Positions 3,947 through 52,169 of a stretch of DNA of 64,000 nt are shown here, one piece after another. Position 1 is the first letter of the stretch. Each line of letters starts with the position of its first letter. The translations under genes were made by a program, and so were the position numbers. The notes under the pieces were generated by a model. It saw only the letters and a program-made list of their open reading frames with translations, had not been told where the DNA came from and searched no databases. Source of the stretch: Escherichia phage dw-ec. Location of the stretch: sequence record OL739525.1; one strand, given 5' to 3'.

Positions 3947-5320
3947 ATGGCAACTTTTCGTGAAAAGGTAGCAACCGTAACTTTACTGTATGGTGCTACA
4001 TCAATTCGTGAAACCCAGTTCGATATTCCCCTGATCCTTACAGGTCAGAACGTAACTGGCGAAGCGATTCAATATTACTCTTCTTCCGATGCACTTTTGG
4101 AAGCAGGTTATGGATTAAATGATCCAGCGTATATTATGGCAGTCAAACTGTTTAACGGTTTGTTCCCACCAGATCAAGTCATGGTTGGTAAGCGTGAAGT
4201 TACAAACTTTACTCTAACTCCAATCGTAGAAGATAGTGCAACTTACACAATTACCATCAAAAATGGTACCAAGAAAAAAGAATTTAAATTCATTGCTGAT
4301 GACACTGCAACTGCACAAGAGATTGTAGTTGGTCTGACTGAAATGATCAATGCAGATCTTGTTTATGGCCCACTGTTTACAGTAGCTAACAACGGCGCTG
4401 CAATGACTTTCACTCCAGTAGAAGGTAAGTTTGGTTCTATTGACAGCACAGGTTTCACTCAAGAAACTGTCTATGCTAATGCTATTACGGAAGATATTGC
4501 TGCTCTGCATGATATTGATAGTAGCTGGTTCTGGACCCTTTCAGATTCCCATGAAACAGAAGATGTTCTAGCTTTGGCTGCATGGGTAGAAGAGAATGAT
4601 AAAGTTTACTTCTTCTCTAGCTCTGAACCTGGAATTAAAACGAAAGCAGAAGATAACGTTCTGGAACGACTGAATGACCTCGGTTATAATAACACTTGCT
4701 TTGCTTTGTGGATGACCGATGCAGATTCTGTATTCCCAGAAGCAGCAGTTGTTGGTGCAATCTGTTCTCGTCAACCTGGTTTAACTACTCTTCACGGTAA
4801 AACACTGGTAGGTGTAGAGATCGAGAAACTGGATCAGACTTCGGAAAACAATATTGTTCAACAGAACGGCAACATCTATCGTAAAGAGCATGGAACTCTG
4901 TTCTATCGTGATGGATTGATGGTTAGCGGTTTCTTTGTTGACTATGTTGTTCATGCTTTGTGGTTTAAAGCTCGCACAGAAGAATCACTGTTTACACTGT
5001 TTAAACAACAGTCTATGCTGGGTGGTGGCGTTCGTGCTACTTCAAACGGTCTGGCTTTGATTCGACAAGCTGTTCTGGCTAACCCGATCCAAGTAGGTAT
5101 CCTCAACGGTTCCATCGCTAATGAAGTTGTTACTTCTGAAGAGACTGGTTTGCGTGTCGATCTGAAACCTATTGTTTATATTCCTTCTCGTGCTGATATG
5201 ACTGATGCGCAAATCAATGCTCGTCTGGTCGATGGGATGAAGATTGAATATGTTTACGCTGGCTTCTTCCATTACGTTAAAGTTCAGGTCAACGTCCTGA
5301 CTAACCGTACTGCAAACTAA
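3947..5320 (+). CDS. tail sheath protein (putative)
   Basis: 457 aa, RBS AGGAG. Conserved myovirus order sheath, tube, chaperone pair, tape measure. No motif verified. Confidence 0.55.
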   Translation: MATFREKVATVTLLYGATSIRETQFDIPLILTGQNVTGEAIQYYSSSDALLEAGYGLNDPAYIMAVKLFNGLFPPDQVMVGKREVTNFTLTPIVEDSATYTITIKNGTKKKEFKFIADDTATAQEIVVGLTEMINADLVYGPLFTVANNGAAMTFTPVEGKFGSIDSTGFTQETVYANAITEDIAALHDIDSSWFWTLSDSHETEDVLALAAWVEENDKVYFFSSSEPGIKTKAEDNVLERLNDLGYNNTCFALWMTDADSVFPEAAVVGAICSRQPGLTTLHGKTLVGVEIEKLDQTSENNIVQQNGNIYRKEHGTLFYRDGLMVSGFFVDYVVHALWFKARTEESLFTLFKQQSMLGGGVRATSNGLALIRQAVLANPIQVGILNGSIANEVVTSEETGLRVDLKPIVYIPSRADMTDAQINARLVDGMKIEYVYAGFFHYVKVQVNVLTNRTAN

Positions 5321-5323
5321 TAC

Positions 5324-5344
5324 GGCGGGGGTTAAGCCCCCGTT
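5324..5344 (+). other. stem-loop between sheath and tube genes
   Basis: CGGGGG-TTAAG-CCCCCG hairpin with no strong T-run; possible attenuator or processing site. Confidence 0.3.
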
Positions 5345-5366
5345 ATCAAAATAAAGAGGATCTATA

Positions 5367-5846
5367 ATGGATAAAATGCTTACTGGCGTAATGGCCTACG
5401 ACCCATCTCAAGTTATCCTTTCATTAGGTGGTTGGGAACCGTGGGGTTTTGCGGCTGATACTAAAATCGTTATTGCTAAATCTAACGATATTATCAACCC
5501 TTATTCAGGGACTGATGGTGACGTTTCACTAGCTTTGAGTCGTAACCGTTTGGGAACACTCACAATGTCTTTGCAACGCACATCTCCAGCTAACGAAGTA
5601 CTTGCAACATATGCACAAACAATGTATTCTACTCGTCAAGTAGCATTCAGCGTTTACTTGGAAGACCCACGTGGCTATTACATTAGCACGATTGGATGGA
5701 TTCAAAGTCAGCCTGAAGATACTATTGGCGAAATGATTACAGAGAACCAATGGGTTATTGGTCTTAAAGATGCAAGCCTTCTGCGTAATGAAGTTGGTGT
5801 AGGTTTGAGCACCCTTAACTCAATCTCTGCTCTGACAATTCAATAA
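5367..5846 (+). CDS. tail tube protein (putative)
   Basis: 159 aa ORF directly after the sheath gene; RBS AGAGGA. Confidence 0.5.
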   Translation: MDKMLTGVMAYDPSQVILSLGGWEPWGFAADTKIVIAKSNDIINPYSGTDGDVSLALSRNRLGTLTMSLQRTSPANEVLATYAQTMYSTRQVAFSVYLEDPRGYYISTIGWIQSQPEDTIGEMITENQWVIGLKDASLLRNEVGVGLSTLNSISALTIQ

Positions 5847-5852
5847 TAAATA

Positions 5853-5876
5853 AAGGGCAGAAATGCCCTTTTTATC
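5853..5876 (+). terminator. rho-independent terminator after tube gene
   Basis: AAGGGCA-GAAA-TGCCCTT stem with GAAA loop, then TTTTT. Confidence 0.6.
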
Positions 5877-5891
5877 ATTAGAGAGGAAAAT

Positions 5892-6374
5892 ATGTCACAA
5901 GAACAAGATAACACAATTCAAAAATATGCTCGACCAGAAGAAGTAGTTGAGATTCCGTTAGATGGAAACAGATCTGTTACTTTCCGTATTATGAAGTGGA
6001 GTCCATCTAAAGTGTTTGACAGGATTCCAGAATTAGGTAGTGTTCTGGTTGTTCCTATGACTATGTATAGCACAGCAACAATGTCCGCAGACGAAGACCT
6101 TGAGTCACGTATTGCTATGGCACTGATCCAACTTTTTGCAGGTTTGGAAGAAAAGAATTTAACTGTCTTTTTGCGTAAAATTTTAGATGAGGTTTATACT
6201 CAAGACGGTTATAACGTTGCAGAAAATTTTGATGAATTATTTATGGCTCACCCAGAACTAGTGTTAGATCTTACTGCTAAAGTTCTGGAGGTAAACTACG
6301 GCCCTTTTTTCAAACGAGGTTTCGGAAAACTGTTCACACAGCTTCAGGCGATGACGAGTTTAGCAGCAAATTAA
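5892..6374 (+). CDS. tail assembly chaperone (G-like, zero-frame product)
   Basis: 160 aa ORF directly upstream of the tape measure gene; contains the slippery heptamer T_TTT_TTC. Confidence 0.6.
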   Translation: MSQEQDNTIQKYARPEEVVEIPLDGNRSVTFRIMKWSPSKVFDRIPELGSVLVVPMTMYSTATMSADEDLESRIAMALIQLFAGLEEKNLTVFLRKILDEVYTQDGYNVAENFDELFMAHPELVLDLTAKVLEVNYGPFFKRGFGKLFTQLQAMTSLAAN

Positions 6375-6640
6375 CACCTGCGATTGAACATGCTATCGAC
6401 ACAGCAACGAAAACCCTTACTTTGAAGTGGTATGAGGTTATTCTTTGCAAAGTCGTTAAAGATACCTCGGAAACACTGAAAACATTGGATAACTACGGTG
6501 TAGATTATCTTTTAAAACTATATGAGTATTTAACATACGAAGAGTATGTTGAAGCCATGTATGTTAAAGACACTTCAATAAAGAGAAAACATCAAAACCA
6601 GACAAATAAAATGTCAGATTTGTTTAAGAAACTTGTTTAA
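5892..6640 (+). CDS. tail assembly chaperone, frameshift-extended form (G-T-like)
   Basis: The -1 frame after 6305-6311 is continuous with ORF 6422-6640, with no stop between 6311 and 6422. Fusion would be about 249 aa. Matches the conserved chaperone frameshift arrangement upstream of tape measure genes. Confidence 0.45.
6305..6311 (+). promoter_or_regulatory. predicted -1 ribosomal frameshift slippery site T_TTT_TTC
   Basis: Zero-frame codons CCT TTT TTC. The -1 frame from 6311 is open through to the stop at 6640. Confidence 0.5.
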
Positions 6641-6660
6641 TCCAACACGAGGAACATACT

Positions 6661-8649
6661 TTGTTAGAAATTAACGCCTCCAAAATTAGTAACGTGGTTA
6701 CGTTTAAGGTGGACAAGAACAGTCTCAAGGAAGCAAAAGATGCCGTGTTGAGTGTTCAGAAGTTTGCAAATAAAATGCAACCCACTATGAACATGACCAA
6801 GTTTAGACAACAAATGAAAGAGATTGAGCGTGAACTTAAGAAAGCTCAAACTCAAAGTCAAAAACCTATGCGAGCACCTACTCCCGCTGGAGCGGGTGCT
6901 CCTGTAGGTGGATCTGGCAGACCAAGAACTCCTAAAACCCCGCAAGGAAGAGAAGAAGAAAAAGCTCGTAAAGCGGCTGAACGCGAAGCTAAAGCAGCAG
7001 CACGTAGGGAAGACTTAGGTAATCTTCGTTTGCAAAACTTTAACTACCGAGCAAAAGCATTTAGTAAAGCCAGCCCTGGCGCTATGCAAGAAGCTAGAGA
7101 CGTTATGGGTAAAGCTGTAGAGCAATACAAAAAGGGTGAAATAACTCTTCAACGTATGAACCAAGCTCTTGCTCACCAGTTAGATGCCTTACGCAGATCT
7201 CATCGTGAAAAGAATGCTGAAATAGAAGACGAGGTTCGCGGTCGTCGCCGTATTCGTAGAGAGCTAGAAGCAGAAGCTAAAATGCGTATACGTATGCGAA
7301 ATCGTGAACTTAGAGATATAGAACGCAACCGTAAGCGTGAATTAGCTCAACAAAAACGTGATCGTGATCGTCGATATGGACAATTAAAAGAAGGTGCAGC
7401 AGGTCTTAATCCACGTATGATTGCATCCTCTTTGATAGGTGCTGGGCTGTTTGCAGGTGGTTCTGTAGTTGGTAACACGTTGATGAATACTAACGAAAGA
7501 ATTAAACTTGTAAGTCGTGGCGCTGAAAACGTTCAGACAAACGCCAACGCTATTTTGGCAATGACAGCTTGGGGTGAACAGAACGGTGTAGACTCTGCAA
7601 ATATTATTAAATCAATAGATAATATTAAAGACGTTCGTGAACGTCTTGGTAATACAGTTTTAGCCTCAAAATGGAATGAGAAAGAAGGGAAGTGGAAAGG
7701 CGGTGATAATGGCATAAATGACATTATGAACTTGTTTGGATGGAATCCAGAACAGCTTAAACCTTTACAGAACGACCCTTTAGCTTTTATTCAGGCTACT
7801 GTTAATGAAGGTGAGCGTCGAGGTATGAACTCTGCTCAAATCGGGCGACTTCTTGAAAACCTTGGTGACGACCTTATGCACTACCAGCGCATGTTTAGTA
7901 AAAACGGCGAAGGGTATAATGAGGTATTGAAAATGCTTCAAAGAACAGGTGCAACATTAACTCAAGAACAAATAGATGCTTCTAAAGAGTTTACTCGTTT
8001 TGCTGCAACAGTTCAGCTTGTAGGTCAAGGTATGCAGAACCATTTCTTAGAGGGTTTTGTGAAAGCCTTACCTAAAGATGATTCTTGGTTGGATAACGTT
8101 AAAGTGCTAGATCAGTTTGCCAAAGATTTAGGTGAAGAACTTGGTAAAACAACAGTTCAACTTGGTGGTTTTGCTAAAGAATTGGGAGATGGTTTCGGAT
8201 CTTTTACCAATTGGCTTAAAGAAACATTCCCAGATACCTTCGGAGACAACACAGATCCTAATAAATCTATGGCACAAAAAGCATACGAGGCAACGCAAAG
8301 TGGAGACAGTAACCCTGTAGCAGATTGGTTGTACAATTTAACAGGTATTGATACACAAGATATTGGTCGTATGTGGAGAGGAGAACAAACAAGGACACGT
8401 GCTTTTGGATTTGGTAATCCTCTTGAAGATTTACGTGAATCAGCCTATACACCTAACGTAAGTTTGGCTCGTAATCAACCTGTTGTTGAGAATACGGTAG
8501 CAATACCAAGTGATCTTATCAAAGTTACGATCAGCCCTTCTTCCGAGTTTGGAAATATTCTTGATGCAAGAATTCAAAATAGCGGAAATAGCATTTTCCA
8601 ACGTTTGTCTCTTTCAACTCTAAGTGGACAATCTAACACTGGTGGTTAA
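6661..8649 (+). CDS. tail tape measure protein
   Basis: 662 aa, TTG start after RBS GAGGAA. Long highly charged coiled-coil region (repeated R/E/K/A runs); located after the chaperone pair. Confidence 0.75.
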   Translation: MLEINASKISNVVTFKVDKNSLKEAKDAVLSVQKFANKMQPTMNMTKFRQQMKEIERELKKAQTQSQKPMRAPTPAGAGAPVGGSGRPRTPKTPQGREEEKARKAAEREAKAAARREDLGNLRLQNFNYRAKAFSKASPGAMQEARDVMGKAVEQYKKGEITLQRMNQALAHQLDALRRSHREKNAEIEDEVRGRRRIRRELEAEAKMRIRMRNRELRDIERNRKRELAQQKRDRDRRYGQLKEGAAGLNPRMIASSLIGAGLFAGGSVVGNTLMNTNERIKLVSRGAENVQTNANAILAMTAWGEQNGVDSANIIKSIDNIKDVRERLGNTVLASKWNEKEGKWKGGDNGINDIMNLFGWNPEQLKPLQNDPLAFIQATVNEGERRGMNSAQIGRLLENLGDDLMHYQRMFSKNGEGYNEVLKMLQRTGATLTQEQIDASKEFTRFAATVQLVGQGMQNHFLEGFVKALPKDDSWLDNVKVLDQFAKDLGEELGKTTVQLGGFAKELGDGFGSFTNWLKETFPDTFGDNTDPNKSMAQKAYEATQSGDSNPVADWLYNLTGIDTQDIGRMWRGEQTRTRAFGFGNPLEDLRESAYTPNVSLARNQPVVENTVAIPSDLIKVTISPSSEFGNILDARIQNSGNSIFQRLSLSTLSGQSNTGG

Positions 8650-8656
8650 TAAAATA

Positions 8657-8678
8657 CCTCGCTTCGGCGGGGTTTTTT
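8657..8678 (+). terminator. rho-independent terminator after tape measure gene
   Basis: CCTCGC-TTCG-GCGGGG stem with UUCG tetraloop, then TTTTTT. Confidence 0.7.
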
Positions 8679-8686
8679 CGTTTCCC

Positions 8687-8716
8687 TTGACACGAAGTTT
8701 CTATATGTGTTACAAT
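8687..8716 (+). promoter_or_regulatory. sigma70-like promoter (TTGACA-N18-TACAAT)
   Basis: -35 TTGACA at 8687-8692 and -10 TACAAT at 8711-8716, in the gap before the baseplate genes. Confidence 0.55.
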
Positions 8717-8775: not shown

Positions 8776-9477
8776 ATGGCAGCAATGACTCCACAACAGT
8801 CGGTGAGAGCCGTCTATAAGGCAGAACAGGAAATCAACTCTACCGAGAATAAAAATACCTCGGCATCTACTGTAAAGGGTGATAATGGTTTCTGCATTTT
8901 AGCAAGTGTTTATAATAGTTCAAGTGATCAATACATTCAAAACTTTAAAGCAATTACTTTCGATTCAGTCCCTGAAATAGGTGTAACTCGTGAGGCAGAT
9001 GTTACAAGTTTTCCAGTAGAATCAGGATCGGATGTAAGCGACCACGTTCAAATAAAAAACAACAGATTTAAACTTTCAGGTATAATTACCGAAACACCAA
9101 TTCGGCTTATGCGAGATCAATTATACAGTGCAGGTGTAAATGGGGCAAGGATTTCTCAAGCAATAGAATATCTAGATCAAATATTTGAGTCAAGACAACC
9201 AATAGTTCTTTTGACAGAACACAGAACTTTTGAAAATGTTATTCTCAAAGGTTATTCATATGATTATAAATCTGAATTTGCTATGCAATTTGATTTAGAG
9301 TTTGAACAAATCCGTCTCGTTTCTAAGGCCACTACTAACGCTATTGCTGTAAAAACAGCACCAAATAAGTCAACTGGTGGTGATGTGAAAGGTCAAGTTG
9401 CTTCTAATGGTCCTAAGTCAGATATTACAGTAAGAACTGCTGAAGCTACTAATACCCCAACAAACAATGGAGGTTAA
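8776..9477 (+). CDS. baseplate/tail assembly protein (hypothetical)
   Basis: 233 aa ORF with RBS, first gene after the tape measure. Confidence 0.4.
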   Translation: MAAMTPQQSVRAVYKAEQEINSTENKNTSASTVKGDNGFCILASVYNSSSDQYIQNFKAITFDSVPEIGVTREADVTSFPVESGSDVSDHVQIKNNRFKLSGIITETPIRLMRDQLYSAGVNGARISQAIEYLDQIFESRQPIVLLTEHRTFENVILKGYSYDYKSEFAMQFDLEFEQIRLVSKATTNAIAVKTAPNKSTGGDVKGQVASNGPKSDITVRTAEATNTPTNNGG

Positions 9478-45319: not shown

Positions 45320-45348
45320 AGTATAACACGATAGAGGCTTTATTGCAA
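45320..45348 (-). promoter_or_regulatory. sigma70-like promoter (TTGCAA-N17-TATACT)
   Basis: On the minus strand, -35 TTGCAA at 45348-45343 and -10 TATACT at 45325-45320, upstream of the lysin gene. Confidence 0.5.
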
Positions 45349-45368
45349 GAGGGGGATTTCTCCCCCTC
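45349..45368 (-). other. GC-rich hairpin after the TerD-like gene
   Basis: GAGGGGGA-TTTC-TCCCCCTC abutting the -35 element; no U-run. Confidence 0.35.
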
Positions 45369-45386
45369 AAAATCATTTGTTAATTA

Positions 45387-45989
45387 TTATGGACATTCAT
45401 ACCATTCTTTTTTACCACCGAAGGCCATCACCACATCGCAAATATCCAGACCGGCTTTACCTACACCATATGCTTTCAGCTTCCATTCCCCATCTTCACG
45501 AACCAAGGAAGCCACGTGGCAGATTGTGTTACCAGCTACTTCAGGAGCCAGGAAGTCAAAATCCAGAATTTCCACATTACGTTCGGAGTCAAAGATTTTA
45601 AGCATACCTTCAGAAGCATGACCAAAACGTTTCAGACCTGTATCATCATCAATGGTCAGAACAAAGGCAATCTCTTGTGCATCAGGAGAGATTTTAGCCA
45701 GAGTAATATCAATCTGCTCCATGCTGCCAGTCCCATCACGAACATCGTCACCAGCGAAGGTAGAACGTTCAGGATCAAACTTGTTAGCGTAGCAAACCAG
45801 ATGACGTGCAGACAGCATTTCAGGATTGCCAGCGGCATTATGACGACAAACCAGTGCACTTACATCCAGATCCAGTTTAGAATCAGATTTCCAAGAGAAT
45901 TCCAGGCGCAGTTCTTTCAGAGCCGGAGCAACTTTCTTCAGGGAAATTTTTTCGCTAGAGCCTTTTTTCAGGGAAATTTTATCAGTCAT
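45387..45989 (-). CDS. TerD-family protein
   Basis: 200 aa. Aligns by eye along its length to E. coli TerD recalled from memory: N-terminal ISLKKG..ISLKK, DLDVSALV, GDDVRDGTG, FVLTIDD, GEWKLKAYGVG. Confidence 0.7.
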   Translation of the reverse strand: MTDKISLKKGSSEKISLKKVAPALKELRLEFSWKSDSKLDLDVSALVCRHNAAGNPEMLSARHLVCYANKFDPERSTFAGDDVRDGTGSMEQIDITLAKISPDAQEIAFVLTIDDDTGLKRFGHASEGMLKIFDSERNVEILDFDFLAPEVAGNTICHVASLVREDGEWKLKAYGVGKAGLDICDVVMAFGGKKEWYECP

Positions 45990-48130: not shown

Positions 48131-48528
48131 TACAAACCCTCCTTCAGATTATCAAGAGCTACAGTGGTTTCACAAAATTCTCCATAAGCTTTATGATGTT
48201 CCAGAAAAGCTTCGGGTCCACCCCAGTCATTATCTTGTGTATTCCAGCCATCTATAAAAGCATCTTCAATGATTGTGATCAGTTCCTGTCGAGTCAACGT
48301 AATGGTATCAGGTTTCTGCGTAGTTTCCACACGGAACCCTGGTTCTTCATAAAAACCTTTAGTTATAATGGATTCTAACTCTTCTGCATCACAGAGGAAG
48401 TAGCCACAAAGATAACACCAACCGTCATCATCTTTCATTACTTCATAAACTTCACCACTTGCCAAATTAGTGAAAAGAGTAGGGTCTGTTACTGTAAGTT
48501 TTAAAAGAATACCTGTTGGATTATACAT
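48130..48528 (-). CDS. hypothetical protein
   Basis: 132 aa ORF with overlapping start and stop. Confidence 0.45.
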   Translation of the reverse strand: MYNPTGILLKLTVTDPTLFTNLASGEVYEVMKDDDGWCYLCGYFLCDAEELESIITKGFYEEPGFRVETTQKPDTITLTRQELITIIEDAFIDGWNTQDNDWGGPEAFLEHHKAYGEFCETTVALDNLKEGL

Positions 48529-51635: not shown

Positions 51636-51822
51636 ATTTGCTTTCCTCGTTTTGGCTATTAATACATCTGTGTTTGAAATCTCCAGAGAAGCAATAAAGT
51701 TGCTCTCCATCTCGGTATAAACTCACTTTACTGCCGTTGATTACGCTTGTCAATACAAAAATTACAACAAACAACCCTATTGCAAAACAGATATTTTCAA
51801 ACACAACCAACAAGTATTTCAT
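51577..51822 (-). CDS. small membrane protein
   Basis: 81 aa with an N-terminal hydrophobic helix; its 3' end overlaps the lipoprotein gene start. Confidence 0.35.
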   Translation of the reverse strand: MKYLLVVFENICFAIGLFVVIFVLTSVINGSKVSLYRDGEQLYCFSGDFKHRCINSQNEESKYEKTSPDFNWLYLFNSLRG

Positions 51823-52169
51823 TTTAAAAATACCTCATCATCAGTTTCATTATCCCAGAAGAACAAATCCCAACCATTCGGATCATTCCATTTGGCTGCT
51901 GGAGAAGTCCATATTTGTTCAATATCAATATTCAAAACTTCACCGTTTCGTTTTGAAACAGCTTTAGTTAATTCCCAACGAGATACAGGCTCTACTTCTC
52001 CTGAACCACTTCCACAACAAGCTACCACATTAGGAGGCAAATTAATCGGATCTTTGGTCACAATCATAACGCTTACCCCAGGGTAAACTTTTGAAAGATA
52101 ATCTGAAATGTAATCCACATCACCAGGTAAATCCCAAACAAGTTCTTGAATTTCATCAAAATTATTCAT
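51819..52169 (-). CDS. hypothetical protein
   Basis: 116 aa, RBS AGGAGAG. Confidence 0.45.
   Translation of the reverse strand: MNNFDEIQELVWDLPGDVDYISDYLSKVYPGVSVMIVTKDPINLPPNVVACCGSGSGEVEPVSRWELTKAVSKRNGEVLNIDIEQIWTSPAAKWNDPNGWDLFFWDNETDDEVFLK

What the first reader, a model, noticed from the sequence alone, without database searches (positions are those of the whole stretch)
6305..6640. Predicted -1 frameshift joining the two tail-assembly chaperone ORFs
The heptamer T_TTT_TTC lies in the zero frame of ORF 5892-6374, and the -1 frame from 6311 is open with no stop into ORF 6422-6640, which otherwise lacks a convincing start. This matches the conserved chaperone frameshift found immediately upstream of tape measure genes in many tailed phages, and explains the second ORF as the C-terminal extension of a fusion product.
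Basis: partly seen in the sequence, partly recalled or inferred. Interest (0 to 1): 0.45.

Follow-up and report, generated by a model that had tools for sequence, protein, structure and literature searches.

The report
Tail chaperone −1 frameshift, phAPEC8-like phage
The window comes from a phAPEC8-like E. coli phage, and its two small genes ahead of the tail tape measure gene are almost certainly one tail-assembly chaperone made in a short and a long form by a programmed −1 ribosomal slip; this is a well-known phage trick that public records of this phage group have not annotated.

Summary
[quoted passage not shown] The −1 frame is open from 6281 to the stop at 6638-6640, just before the tape measure gene (6661-8649).

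In one genome this could be chance, so the case rests on comparison. All 60 related loci examined (Stephanstirmvirinae and Vequintavirinae, chaperone identity down to about 29%) carry the same in-frame heptamer with a −1 extension of at least 101 codons.
- **Codon choice:** across 48 distinct alleles it is frozen (TTT 48/48, TTC 48/48, preceding base T 48/48). Two other invariant Phe codons vary freely.
- **Second ORF:** it has no conserved start codon and no ribosome-binding site. Its protein conservation begins at the slip site, upstream of TTG 6422.

The predicted products are 160 aa (18.2 kDa) and a 249 aa fusion (28.8 kDa).

No downstream RNA structure was found. A strong Shine-Dalgarno-like GGAGGT lies 12 nt upstream and is a candidate stimulator, but it is not universal in the family.

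None of the 20 related records (19 phages) inspected joins the two ORFs. The same mechanism was proposed in 2025 for sister families.

The parts
3947..5320 (+). Tail sheath gene (context)
   Evidence: phrog_205 tail sheath, E 2.9e-100; Pfam DUF3383. Annotated as tail sheath in ETEC-TG and phAPEC8.
5367..5846 (+). Tail tube gene (context). This is the protein the long chaperone form would recruit, by analogy with lambda.
   Evidence: phrog_280; weak PF11681 KPP10_Orf10 hit. The phi92 homologue gp131 is the tube protein in the cryo-EM paper PMC13450770.
5852..5871 (+). Terminator-like hairpin between the tube gene and the chaperone gene
   Evidence: Pattern scan. Annotated as a putative terminator at the same place in phAPEC8.
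5892..6374 (+). Short chaperone form (TAC-N, gpG analogue): 160 aa, 18.2 kDa, product of standard decoding
6287..6292 (+). Shine-Dalgarno-like GGAGGT, candidate 5' stimulator. It lies 12 nt before T_TTT_TTC and 9 nt before C_CCT_TTT.
   Evidence: −10.7 kcal/mol against the anti-SD, in the strongest 0.5% of 8-mers in the 420 nt upstream. The published stimulatory spacing for −1 shifts is 9-14 nt (PMC5009743). A comparably strong element sits at the same position in 29 of 47 distinct alleles. Its function is inferred, not shown.
6302..6311 (+). Slippery tract CCCTTTTTTC, made of the overlapping in-frame heptamers C_CCT_TTT (6302-6308) and T_TTT_TTC (6305-6311)
   Evidence: T_TTT_TTC is invariant in all 60 related loci and 48 distinct alleles. 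Both heptamers fall in the high-efficiency class H_HH.U_UU.Y for E. coli (PMC4066793).
6311..6640 (+). −1 frame extension (T-domain analogue): 109 codons plus stop. Joined to codons 1-140 of 5892-6311 it gives the 249 aa, 28.8 kDa long form (TAC-NC).
   Evidence: tblastn with the whole extension aligns from residue 1 in other genera at 58-66% identity. The RFR motif and the conserved domain start upstream of the TTG at 6422.
6318..6324 (+). GGTTTCG block, 6 nt 3' of the heptamer. It reads Gly-Phe in the zero frame and Arg-Phe-Arg in the −1 frame.
   Evidence: The GGT codon is invariant in 48 of 48 alleles. The block is at least 90% conserved in the 20-sequence alignment and is also present in Pseudomonas phage KPP10. 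No hairpin support. Most simply explained by dual-coding constraint.
6422..6640 (+). ORF2 as called by gene finders (72 aa, hypothetical protein). Here read as a fragment of the long form, not a separate gene.
   Evidence: phrog_16039. No SD match. The phi92 record lists RBS features for genes 132 and 134 but none for 133. Some records leave the stretch unannotated.
6661..8649 (+). Tape measure protein gene (TTG start; GAGGA at 6650-6654)
   Evidence: phrog_16051, E 0. Annotated as tape measure in phAPEC8 and others.

Best explanation
The window is a Phapecoctavirus (phAPEC8-like myovirus of E. coli). Gene 5892-6374 encodes the tail assembly chaperone.

Most ribosomes terminate at TAA 6372-6374 and make the 160-aa short form. 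A minority slip back one base on CCC-UUU-UUU-C: tandem slippage of tRNA-Phe on U_UUU_UUC at 6305-6311, or of tRNA-Pro and tRNA-Phe on C_CCU_UUU at 6302-6308. They continue in the −1 frame from 6311 to 6640. The result is a 249-aa long form whose last 109 residues include everything now called 'ORF2'.

By analogy with lambda gpG/gpGT and P2 E/E+E', both forms would coat the tape measure protein through the shared N-terminal domain. The C-terminal domain of the rare long form would recruit the tail tube protein. Neither form would stay in the virion.

The slip probably needs no downstream RNA structure. In this phage the upstream GGAGGT, pairing with 16S rRNA, may raise its efficiency.

Shown here: the sequence anatomy, the homology and the comparative conservation. 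Inferred: that the shift happens, its efficiency, the role of the SD-like element, and the protein partners.
For: 1. **Identity and context.** The region is 99.9% identical to phage ETEC-TG and 99% to phAPEC8. The order is sheath, tube, chaperone (PF21822), ORF2, tape measure.
2. **Site conservation.** A canonical in-frame heptamer with an open −1 frame is present in every one of 16 GenBank and 44 IMG/VR related loci. These span Stephanstirmvirinae and Vequintavirinae, with chaperone identity of 29-100%, and all have −1 extensions of 101-127 codons ending just before the tape measure gene.
3. **Frozen synonymous sites.** In 48 distinct alleles Phe139 is TTT 48/48 and Phe140 is TTC 48/48. The preceding codon ends in T 48/48 even though its amino acid changes (CCT Pro or TGT Cys). 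The control invariant Phe31 is TTC 23 / TTT 24, and Phe117 is TTT 19 / TTC 29.
4. **No independent start.** In 40 distinct extensions the first ATG/GTG/TTG falls at alignment columns 41 to 89. It often lies inside or beyond the conserved domain (Hena1, KB57, L030, L034) and has weak SD matches. The window's TTG scores +0.1 kcal/mol.
5. **Conservation from the slip site.** −1-frame protein conservation starts immediately at the heptamer, with the RFR motif and a full-length tblastn alignment from residue 1.
6. **Domain boundary.** The confident part of the AF2 model of the short form ends near residue 141, right at the shift site.
7. **Heptamer efficiency.** Both heptamers belong to the most efficient class in E. 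coli (PMC4066793).
8. **SD-like element.** GGAGGT lies 12 nt upstream, within the 9-14 nt stimulatory spacing.
9. **Distant homologue.** The chaperone of Pseudomonas phage KPP10 (hhalign probability 96%) has a poly-T motif at the aligned position and the same RFR in the −1 frame. A 2025 paper argues for the same −1 frameshift in that family (PMC12846349).
Against: - There is no experimental evidence for a fusion product in this phage or its close relatives. None was found in the literature searches.
- No downstream stimulatory structure exists, so efficiency may be low.
- The SD-like element is weak or absent in 12 of 47 alleles. It also coincides with conserved Leu-Glu-Val codons, so its presence could be a by-product of coding.
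- Pro/Cys-Phe-Phe is itself a conserved protein motif, which explains part, though not the synonymous part, of the nucleotide conservation.
- One of the two peptide patterns used for the IMG/VR scan contained FF, so that sample is biased towards the amino acids, though not towards the codons.
- Related sequences are not independent observations.
Confidence: 0.88

Rival explanations
1. ORF2 is an independent gene. It is translated from the TTG at 6422, either de novo or by re-initiation after ribosomes terminate at the chaperone's stop 48 nt upstream. This gives a separate 72-aa protein, and the heptamer is incidental.
For: Gene callers and many GenBank records annotate it this way. TTG is a legal start, and the upstream stop is close enough for coupling in principle.
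Against: - There is no SD match before 6422 (+0.1 kcal/mol) and no promoter-like site.
- The start position is not conserved. In several relatives the first possible start lies deep inside the conserved domain.
- Protein conservation extends 37 codons upstream of the TTG, to the heptamer.
- The −1 frame opens only 9-36 nt before the heptamer in most relatives.
- Independent initiation does not explain the frozen synonymous sites of the heptamer.
- The phi92 record lists RBS features for the flanking genes but none for gene 133.
Confidence: 0.04
2. The same long protein is made, but through transcriptional slippage. RNA polymerase adds one extra U on the run of six T (6305-6310), and the altered mRNA is then decoded normally.
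For: A one-base insertion in the T run gives exactly the same protein, so sequence analysis and peptide mass spectrometry cannot separate the two routes. Homopolymer runs are known slippage sites (PMC5009743). The conserved feature is a T run in all families examined.
Against: - Productive slippage in bacteria is described for runs of about 9 A or T (PMC5009743). Here the run is only 6.
- What is conserved is a register-specific heptamer, including the 3' C and the zero-frame phase, in 48 of 48 alleles. That is what ribosomal tandem slippage requires; a polymerase has no need for reading-frame register.
- U_UUU_UUC is an experimentally efficient ribosomal shift site in E. coli.
- The SD-like element at the correct spacing has meaning only for ribosomes.
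Confidence: 0.05
3. There is no recoding at all. The open −1 frame and heptamer are a chance or relic feature, and the −1 region is untranslated spacer.
For: In-frame heptamers are common in this A+T-rich genome: 107 in 106 six-frame ORFs, and three in this ORF alone. No stimulatory structure is present.
Against: - A spacer of more than 100 codons would not stay stop-free in the same frame in 60 loci whose chaperones are as little as about 29% identical.
- The −1 translation is conserved as protein (PHROG families 16039 and 10409).
- The synonymous sites of the heptamer are frozen.
Confidence: 0.02

Closest known systems
Phage lambda gpG / gpGT tail assembly chaperone frameshift (Levin et al. 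1993; Xu, Hendrix & Duda 2004, 2013, 2014; reviewed in PMC5009743)
   Same: - Two overlapping ORFs lie between the major tail (tube) gene and the tape measure gene.
- The second ORF is in the −1 frame and has no start of its own.
[quoted passage not shown]
- The result is a short abundant product and a rare C-terminally extended one.
- No downstream structure is evident.
   Different: - The heptamer differs: G_GGA_AAG in lambda (recalled) against T_TTT_TTC here.
- The Pfam scan gave no hit to the lambda gpG or gpT families.
- The host virion is a large contractile-tailed lytic phage, not a siphovirus.
- A candidate upstream SD-like stimulator is present here.
- The product ratio and the binding partners have not been measured here.
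Phage P2 E / E+E' frameshift in the FETUD tail operon (Christie et al. 2002, recalled; mentioned in PMC5009743)
   Same: It is a contractile-tailed phage. The chaperone pair lies between the tube gene and the tape measure gene. The −1 shift occurs on a run of T (recalled as T_TTT_TTG).
   Different: No sequence homology was detected. P2 is a small temperate phage. The last base of the heptamer differs (C here).
−1 frameshift proposed for the chaperone locus of Vandenendeviridae (Pakpunavirus, Nankokuvirus) and Andersonviridae, with an invariant GTTTTT motif (PMC12846349, December 2025)
   Same: - The chaperone is homologous (hhalign probability 96%, E 2.9e-9, to KPP10 gp013).
- A poly-T motif sits at the aligned C-terminal position, and the −1 frame is open up to the tape measure gene.
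- The RFR motif and the GGTTTCG block follow the site.
- The downstream ORF is routinely mis-annotated as a hypothetical protein.
- The argument there is also purely comparative.
   Different: - In KPP10 the zero-frame register is TCG GTT TTT, so G_GTT_TTT is not a canonical heptamer. Here it is the canonical T_TTT_TTC, with an extra overlapping C_CCT_TTT in Stephanstirmvirinae.
- In the passages I read, that paper analysed the chaperone locus only in Vandenendeviridae and Andersonviridae, not in Stephanstirmvirinae or Vequintavirinae.
E. coli dnaX and IS-element −1 frameshift cassettes (SD-like element, slippery heptamer, hairpin)
   Same: An internal Shine-Dalgarno-like sequence lies 9-14 nt 5' of a −1 slippery heptamer (spacing rule from PMC5009743).
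   Different: There is no 3' hairpin or pseudoknot. The heptamer is U-rich rather than A_AAA_AAG. The SD-like element is not conserved across the whole family.

Membership tests
G/GT-type tail assembly chaperone programmed frameshift (Xu, Hendrix & Duda 2004) | Two ORFs located between the major tail/tube gene and the tape measure gene | tested here: met
   Tube 5367-5846, chaperone 5892-6374, ORF2 6422-6640, tape measure 6661-8649. The same order is seen in the related records inspected that hold this locus.
G/GT-type tail assembly chaperone programmed frameshift (Xu, Hendrix & Duda 2004) | The second ORF overlaps the 3' end of the first in the −1 (or +1) frame and lacks its own translation start signals | tested here: met
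   The −1 frame is open from 6281, giving a 94-nt overlap. The first start codon is TTG 6422, with no SD match and no promoter-like site. Start positions are not conserved in 40 alleles.
G/GT-type tail assembly chaperone programmed frameshift (Xu, Hendrix & Duda 2004) | A slippery sequence in the zero frame within the overlap | tested here: met
   T_TTT_TTC at 6305-6311 and C_CCT_TTT at 6302-6308. Both are in the efficient class for E. coli.
G/GT-type tail assembly chaperone programmed frameshift (Xu, Hendrix & Duda 2004) | Architecture and shift site conserved among divergent relatives | tested here: met
   60 of 60 related loci and 48 of 48 distinct alleles carry it. Synonymous sites are frozen, unlike the control Phe codons.
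G/GT-type tail assembly chaperone programmed frameshift (Xu, Hendrix & Duda 2004) | A fusion protein is produced in vivo at a low, fixed ratio to the short form | not testable with these tools
   This needs a western blot, mass spectrometry or ribosome profiling. The predicted products are 18.2 and 28.8 kDa.
G/GT-type tail assembly chaperone programmed frameshift (Xu, Hendrix & Duda 2004) | Both products are required for tail assembly but absent from virions | not testable with these tools
   Only weak support from the literature. Virion mass spectrometry of rV5 lists gp52 and gp53 but not gp50 or gp51. The CB7 record marks sheath, tube and tape measure as 'MS/MS confirmed' but not CB7_19 or CB7_20.
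Pfam PF21822 Phage_TAC_15 | Score above the curated gathering threshold | tested here: met
   84.3 bits against a cut-off of 22; E 1.3e-23; profile positions 3-125 of 127.
Structural class of phage tail assembly chaperones (HK97 chaperone 2ob9; YqbN 3klu) | Fold similarity of the N-terminal domain | tested here: inconclusive
Lambda gpG / gpT sequence families | Sequence match to the lambda-type Pfam families | tested here: not met
   The Pfam scan at E up to 1 returned only PF21822 for the chaperone, and nothing credible for the extension. The system works like lambda G/GT but is not a sequence-family member.
dnaX / IS-type stimulated −1 frameshift cassette | Internal SD-like sequence 9-14 nt 5' of the heptamer | tested here: inconclusive
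   It is present and strong in the window (GGAGGT 6287-6292, −10.7 kcal/mol). A comparable element occurs in only 29 of 47 alleles and overlaps conserved codons.
dnaX / IS-type stimulated −1 frameshift cassette | 3' stem-loop or pseudoknot 5-9 nt after the heptamer | tested here: not met
   The window's z-scores are −0.76 and +0.67. RNAalifold predicts 0 pairs in 20 sequences. In 28 relatives the mean z is +0.34 and none is below −2. No Rfam match covers the site.

The most novel reading that the evidence does not exclude
The shift may be driven by a deeply conserved, structure-free cassette rather than by the heptamer alone. The candidate elements are the near-invariant GGUUUCG block 6-9 nt downstream, shared by Stephanstirmvirinae, Vequintavirinae and Pseudomonas phage KPP10, and in many lineages an SD-like element 12 nt upstream. 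If so, they would act as linear mRNA signals, for example by contacting the ribosome's mRNA entry channel or rRNA, to set frameshift efficiency. That would be a stimulator type not described for phage chaperone genes. My evidence cannot separate this from plain dual-coding constraint (Gly-Phe in frame 0, Arg-Phe-Arg in frame −1).
Probability: 0.1. Interest if true: 0.45.

Novelty: new member of a known kind. Interest (0 to 1): 0.2.

Why it matters
- **Annotation.** tblastn found the chaperone in 358 phage records. In the 20 related records (19 phages) I inspected, the second half of the gene is either a free-standing hypothetical protein or left blank, and none joins it to the chaperone. Several of these phages are studied for phage therapy or biocontrol, so their records could be corrected. 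Merging the two ORFs removes one 'unknown function' gene family (phrog_16039, phrog_10409).
- **Phylogenetic reach.** The conserved chaperone frameshift now extends to two more subfamilies of large lytic myoviruses. It links them, through a shared poly-T site and RFR motif, to the Vandenendeviridae and Andersonviridae case proposed in 2025.
- **Scope.** It does not change our understanding of the mechanism.

Tried and rejected
- **Downstream stimulatory structure.**
  - Single-sequence folds of 60 and 109 nt were no better than shuffles.
  - The consensus fold of 20 relatives gave zero pairs.
  - A 50-nt fold in 28 relatives showed none below z = −2.
  - The Rfam scan gave only two sub-threshold sRNA matches away from the site.
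- **Small local hairpins around GGTTTCG.** Candidates such as CGA-GGUU-UCG in the window and CGAAA/UUUCG in Seunavirus are too short, too close to the heptamer, and not shared by all clades, so I rejected them as stimulators.
- **Single-ORF fusion homologues or annotated joined products.** The 249-aa fusion was searched against 5.8 billion proteins. All 41 hits are chaperones of 158-175 aa covering at most 64% of the query.
- **Solved structures by sequence.** Nothing was found for either part.
- **Structure of the fusion.** The extension alone, without an alignment, gave pLDDT 47.7, which is unusable beyond a helical propensity.
- **Literature.** I found no report of this frameshift in phAPEC8, rV5, phi92 or PVP-SE1 type phages. 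Vladimirov et al. 2022 could not be read.
- **+1 or −2 shifting.** Rejected, because the +1 frame closes at 6387.
Full report
**What the window is**

The stretch 5300-8700 is 99.9% identical to Escherichia phage ETEC-TG and 99% identical to phAPEC8. Both belong to the genus Phapecoctavirus, subfamily Stephanstirmvirinae. The local gene order on the + strand is:
- tail sheath, 3947-5320;
- tail tube, 5367-5846;
- a terminator-like hairpin, 5852-5871;
- a 160-aa ORF, 5892-6374;
- a 72-aa ORF, 6422-6640;
- the tape measure gene, 6661-8649.

The 160-aa ORF matches Pfam PF21822 (Phage_TAC_15) at 84.3 bits against a cut-off of 22, and phrog_3840 'tail assembly chaperone' at E 2.8e-55. The 662-aa ORF matches the tape measure family phrog_16051 at E 0.

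**Checking the observation**

The sequence reads GGC CCT TTT TTC AAA from 6300, in the frame of the ATG at 5892. T_TTT_TTC at 6305-6311 is therefore a canonical X_XXY_YYZ heptamer in the zero frame, at Phe139-Phe140. The −1 frame has a stop at 6278-6280 and is then open to the TAA at 6638-6640. Its first possible start codon is the TTG at 6422.

Two details can be added. A second in-frame heptamer, C_CCT_TTT, overlaps at 6302-6308, and a slip there gives the same protein. The +1 frame closes at 6387, so only a −1 shift is productive.

In this single genome the pattern is suggestive but not compelling. The window's 106 six-frame ORFs of at least 80 aa hold 107 in-frame heptamers. Four of those ORFs combine a heptamer with a −1 extension of at least 60 codons beyond their stop. 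From their coordinates, two of the other three look like ordinary overlapping gene junctions; the third was not examined.

**Comparative test**

I collected two sets of related loci:
- 16 annotated GenBank loci: 15 from records that tblastn found with the chaperone protein (phiWec186, muut, KP2025, KP13-16, rV5, SSE121, 18-1-2, Hena1, KB57, CB7, SNUABM_01, UPEC06, CR9 and close relatives) plus Vibrio phage S4-7;
- 44 IMG/VR loci found with an alignment of these chaperones.

[quoted passage not shown] In each, the −1 frame opens only a few codons upstream and runs 101-127 codons, to just before the tape measure gene. Chaperone identity to the window falls to about 29% in this set.

In a codon alignment of 48 distinct alleles:
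- Phe139 is TTT in 48 of 48, and Phe140 is TTC in 48 of 48.
- The codon before them ends in T in 48 of 48, although it encodes Pro (CCT) in one subfamily and Cys (TGT) in the other.
- The two other invariant phenylalanines use both codons freely: Phe31 is TTC 23 / TTT 24, and Phe117 is TTT 19 / TTC 29.

Selection is therefore acting on the nucleotides of the heptamer, not only on the amino acids.

The more distant Vibrio phage S4-7 keeps the architecture but with A_AAT_TTT.

There are two caveats. One of the two scan patterns for IMG/VR contained the residues FF, which biases that sample towards the amino acids but not the codons. Related genomes are also not independent observations.

**Is ORF2 a gene of its own?**

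The evidence says no.
- In 40 distinct −1 extensions the first ATG/GTG/TTG falls at alignment columns 41 to 89. In several phages (Hena1, KB57, L030, L034 and others) it lies inside or beyond the conserved domain.
- Anti-Shine-Dalgarno pairing before these codons is weak. It is +0.1 kcal/mol before the window's TTG.
- No promoter-like site lies between 6311 and 6422.
- Annotators place the start at different points in different records, or leave the stretch blank.
- The phi92 record lists RBS features for genes 132 and 134 but none for 133.

Conversely, the −1-frame translation is conserved from its first residue. There is an Arg-Phe-Arg motif two to four residues after the slip, then a variable Gly/Ser-rich linker, then a conserved domain. 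That domain begins about 15 residues upstream of the window's TTG. tblastn with the whole 109-aa extension aligns from residue 1 in other genera at 58-66% identity.

**Products**

Standard decoding gives 160 aa (18.2 kDa). The shift gives 140 + 109 = 249 aa (28.8 kDa) with the junction ...VNYGPFF|QTRFRK....

An AlphaFold model of the short form (pLDDT 72, pTM 0.68) has its confident fold end near residue 141, at the slip site. The zero-frame tail is low confidence.

**Stimulators**

No downstream structure was found.
- The window's 60-nt and 109-nt folds are no better than shuffles (z +0.67 and −0.76).
- RNAalifold on 20 relatives predicts no pairs.
- None of 28 relatives folds better than z = −2.
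- The Rfam scan of 5800-6800 gave only two sub-threshold sRNA matches, neither at the shift site.

Both heptamers belong to the class H_HH.U_UU.Y, which Sharma et al. list among the most efficient in E. coli. U_UU.U_UU.C and C_CC.U_UU.U shift above 0.1% without any stimulator (PMC4066793).

Upstream, GGAGGT at 6287-6292 lies 12 nt before T_TTT_TTC and 9 nt before C_CCT_TTT. The published stimulatory spacing for −1 shifts is 9-14 nt (PMC5009743). It is the strongest anti-SD match in the 420 nt upstream (−10.7 kcal/mol). An equally placed element of −8 kcal/mol or stronger occurs in 29 of 47 distinct alleles, but it is essentially absent (weaker than −3 kcal/mol) in 12. I treat it as a plausible, lineage-variable enhancer. 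It also encodes conserved Leu-Glu-Val, so it may be a by-product of coding.

A GGTTTCG block 6-9 nt after the heptamer is nearly invariant. It reads Gly-Phe in frame 0 and Arg-Phe-Arg in frame −1. Dual coding is the simplest explanation, and that itself implies both frames are translated there.

**Mechanism and rivals**

The best-supported reading is tandem −1 ribosomal slippage on U_UUU_UUC, or on the overlapping C_CCU_UUU. This produces a minor long chaperone beside the major short one, working like lambda gpG/gpGT. In lambda, the shared part binds the tape measure protein, the extension recruits the tube protein, and neither product remains in the virion (PMC5009743). The protein partners here are inferred by analogy only.

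- **Independent initiation at TTG 6422** is contradicted by the points in the ORF2 section above.
- **Transcriptional slippage on the T6 run** would give the same protein and cannot be excluded from sequence. However, productive slippage is described for runs of about nine. What is conserved here is a frame-registered heptamer, which is what a ribosome needs and not what a polymerase needs.
- **'No recoding'** is contradicted by the stop-free, protein-conserved −1 frame in 60 loci.

**Relation to what is known**

The chaperone frameshift is a classic (Levin 1993 and Xu 2004, as cited in PMC5009743 and PMC8785237).

None of the 20 related GenBank or RefSeq records (19 phages) that I opened carries a joined CDS. 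The search of 5.8 billion proteins returned no product covering more than 64% of the fusion. I found no paper describing this shift for phAPEC8, rV5, phi92 or their relatives.

A December 2025 paper argues, on the same kind of comparative grounds, for a −1 frameshift at an invariant GTTTTT in the chaperone locus of Vandenendeviridae and Andersonviridae. It notes that those families are related to Vequintavirinae (PMC12846349).

I confirmed the link directly. KPP10 gp013 matches my chaperone alignment (hhalign probability 96%, E 2.9e-9). Its poly-T lies at the aligned position, and its −1 frame again gives ...TRFRR... with the GGTTTCG block. There the register is TCG GTT TTT, which is not a canonical heptamer. 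Here the heptamer is canonical.

**Verdict**

This is a new, unannotated member of a well-known kind, with strong comparative evidence and no experimental evidence. Interest is low to modest. Its main value is correcting annotation across a large group of phages, some of them studied for therapy, and extending a conserved recoding site across related phage families.

Noticed in passing
window 6318-6324; L062 (KPP10) 8026-8032: GGTTTCG, 6-9 nt downstream of the slip site, is nearly invariant from E. coli phages to Pseudomonas phage KPP10. The GGT codon is identical in 48 of 48 alleles. The block encodes Gly-Phe in frame 0 and Arg-Phe-Arg in frame −1. No hairpin explains it.
   Followed up: partly
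window 6287-6292: A perfect Shine-Dalgarno-like GGAGGT lies inside the chaperone gene, 12 nt before the heptamer. It is the strongest anti-SD match in the 420 nt upstream. A comparable element is present in 29 of 47 alleles but absent from the Certrevirus and Mydovirus type alleles.
   Followed up: partly
GenBank records MG065639, MG065644, MG065650, MG065653, MG065656, MG065658, MG065677 ('Campylobacter phage ...'); OP562383 (Acinetobacter phage vB_AbaM_ABPW7); NC_047994 (Klebsiella phage ZCKP1); OR584014 (Pseudomonas phage PsgM04F): Records named for other hosts carry this tail module at coliphage-like identity: 98.8-100% to the window in ABPW7, ZCKP1 and Campylobacter phage B15; the same values as the coliphages rV5 or muut (35% and 59%) in the other Campylobacter records; 66% in PsgM04F. 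Some host labels may reflect contamination or mislabelling.
   Followed up: no
window 6661-8649: The tape measure ORF starts at TTG 6661, preceded by GAGGA at 6650-6654, as in phAPEC8. The near-identical ETEC-TG record starts it 126 nt later, at an internal ATG.
   Followed up: no
window 5852-5871 and 8656-8673: Terminator-like hairpins flank the chaperone and tape measure block. One lies between the tube and chaperone genes and one after the tape measure gene. The first could lower transcription of the chaperone and tape measure genes relative to sheath and tube.
   Followed up: no
window 8687-8716: A strong sigma-70-like promoter match (TTGACA, 18 nt, TACAAT with an extended TG; 11 of 12) lies just after the tape measure terminator and before the next tail gene at 8776.
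   Followed up: no
window 48133-48139 (−) and 51822-51828 (−): In-frame heptamers GGGTTTG and TTTAAAA lie 3 nt before the stops of two minus-strand ORFs, with long −1 ORFs following. From the coordinates they look like ordinary overlapping gene junctions rather than recoding sites.
   Followed up: no
window 45408 (+), in ORF 45343-45621: An in-frame TTTTTTA heptamer is followed by a 218-codon open −1 frame. This is the third ORF flagged by the window-wide heptamer control. I did not check whether the ORF is a real gene.
   Followed up: no
window 1-64000: ARAGORN finds no tRNA genes in the whole 64-kb window.
   Followed up: no
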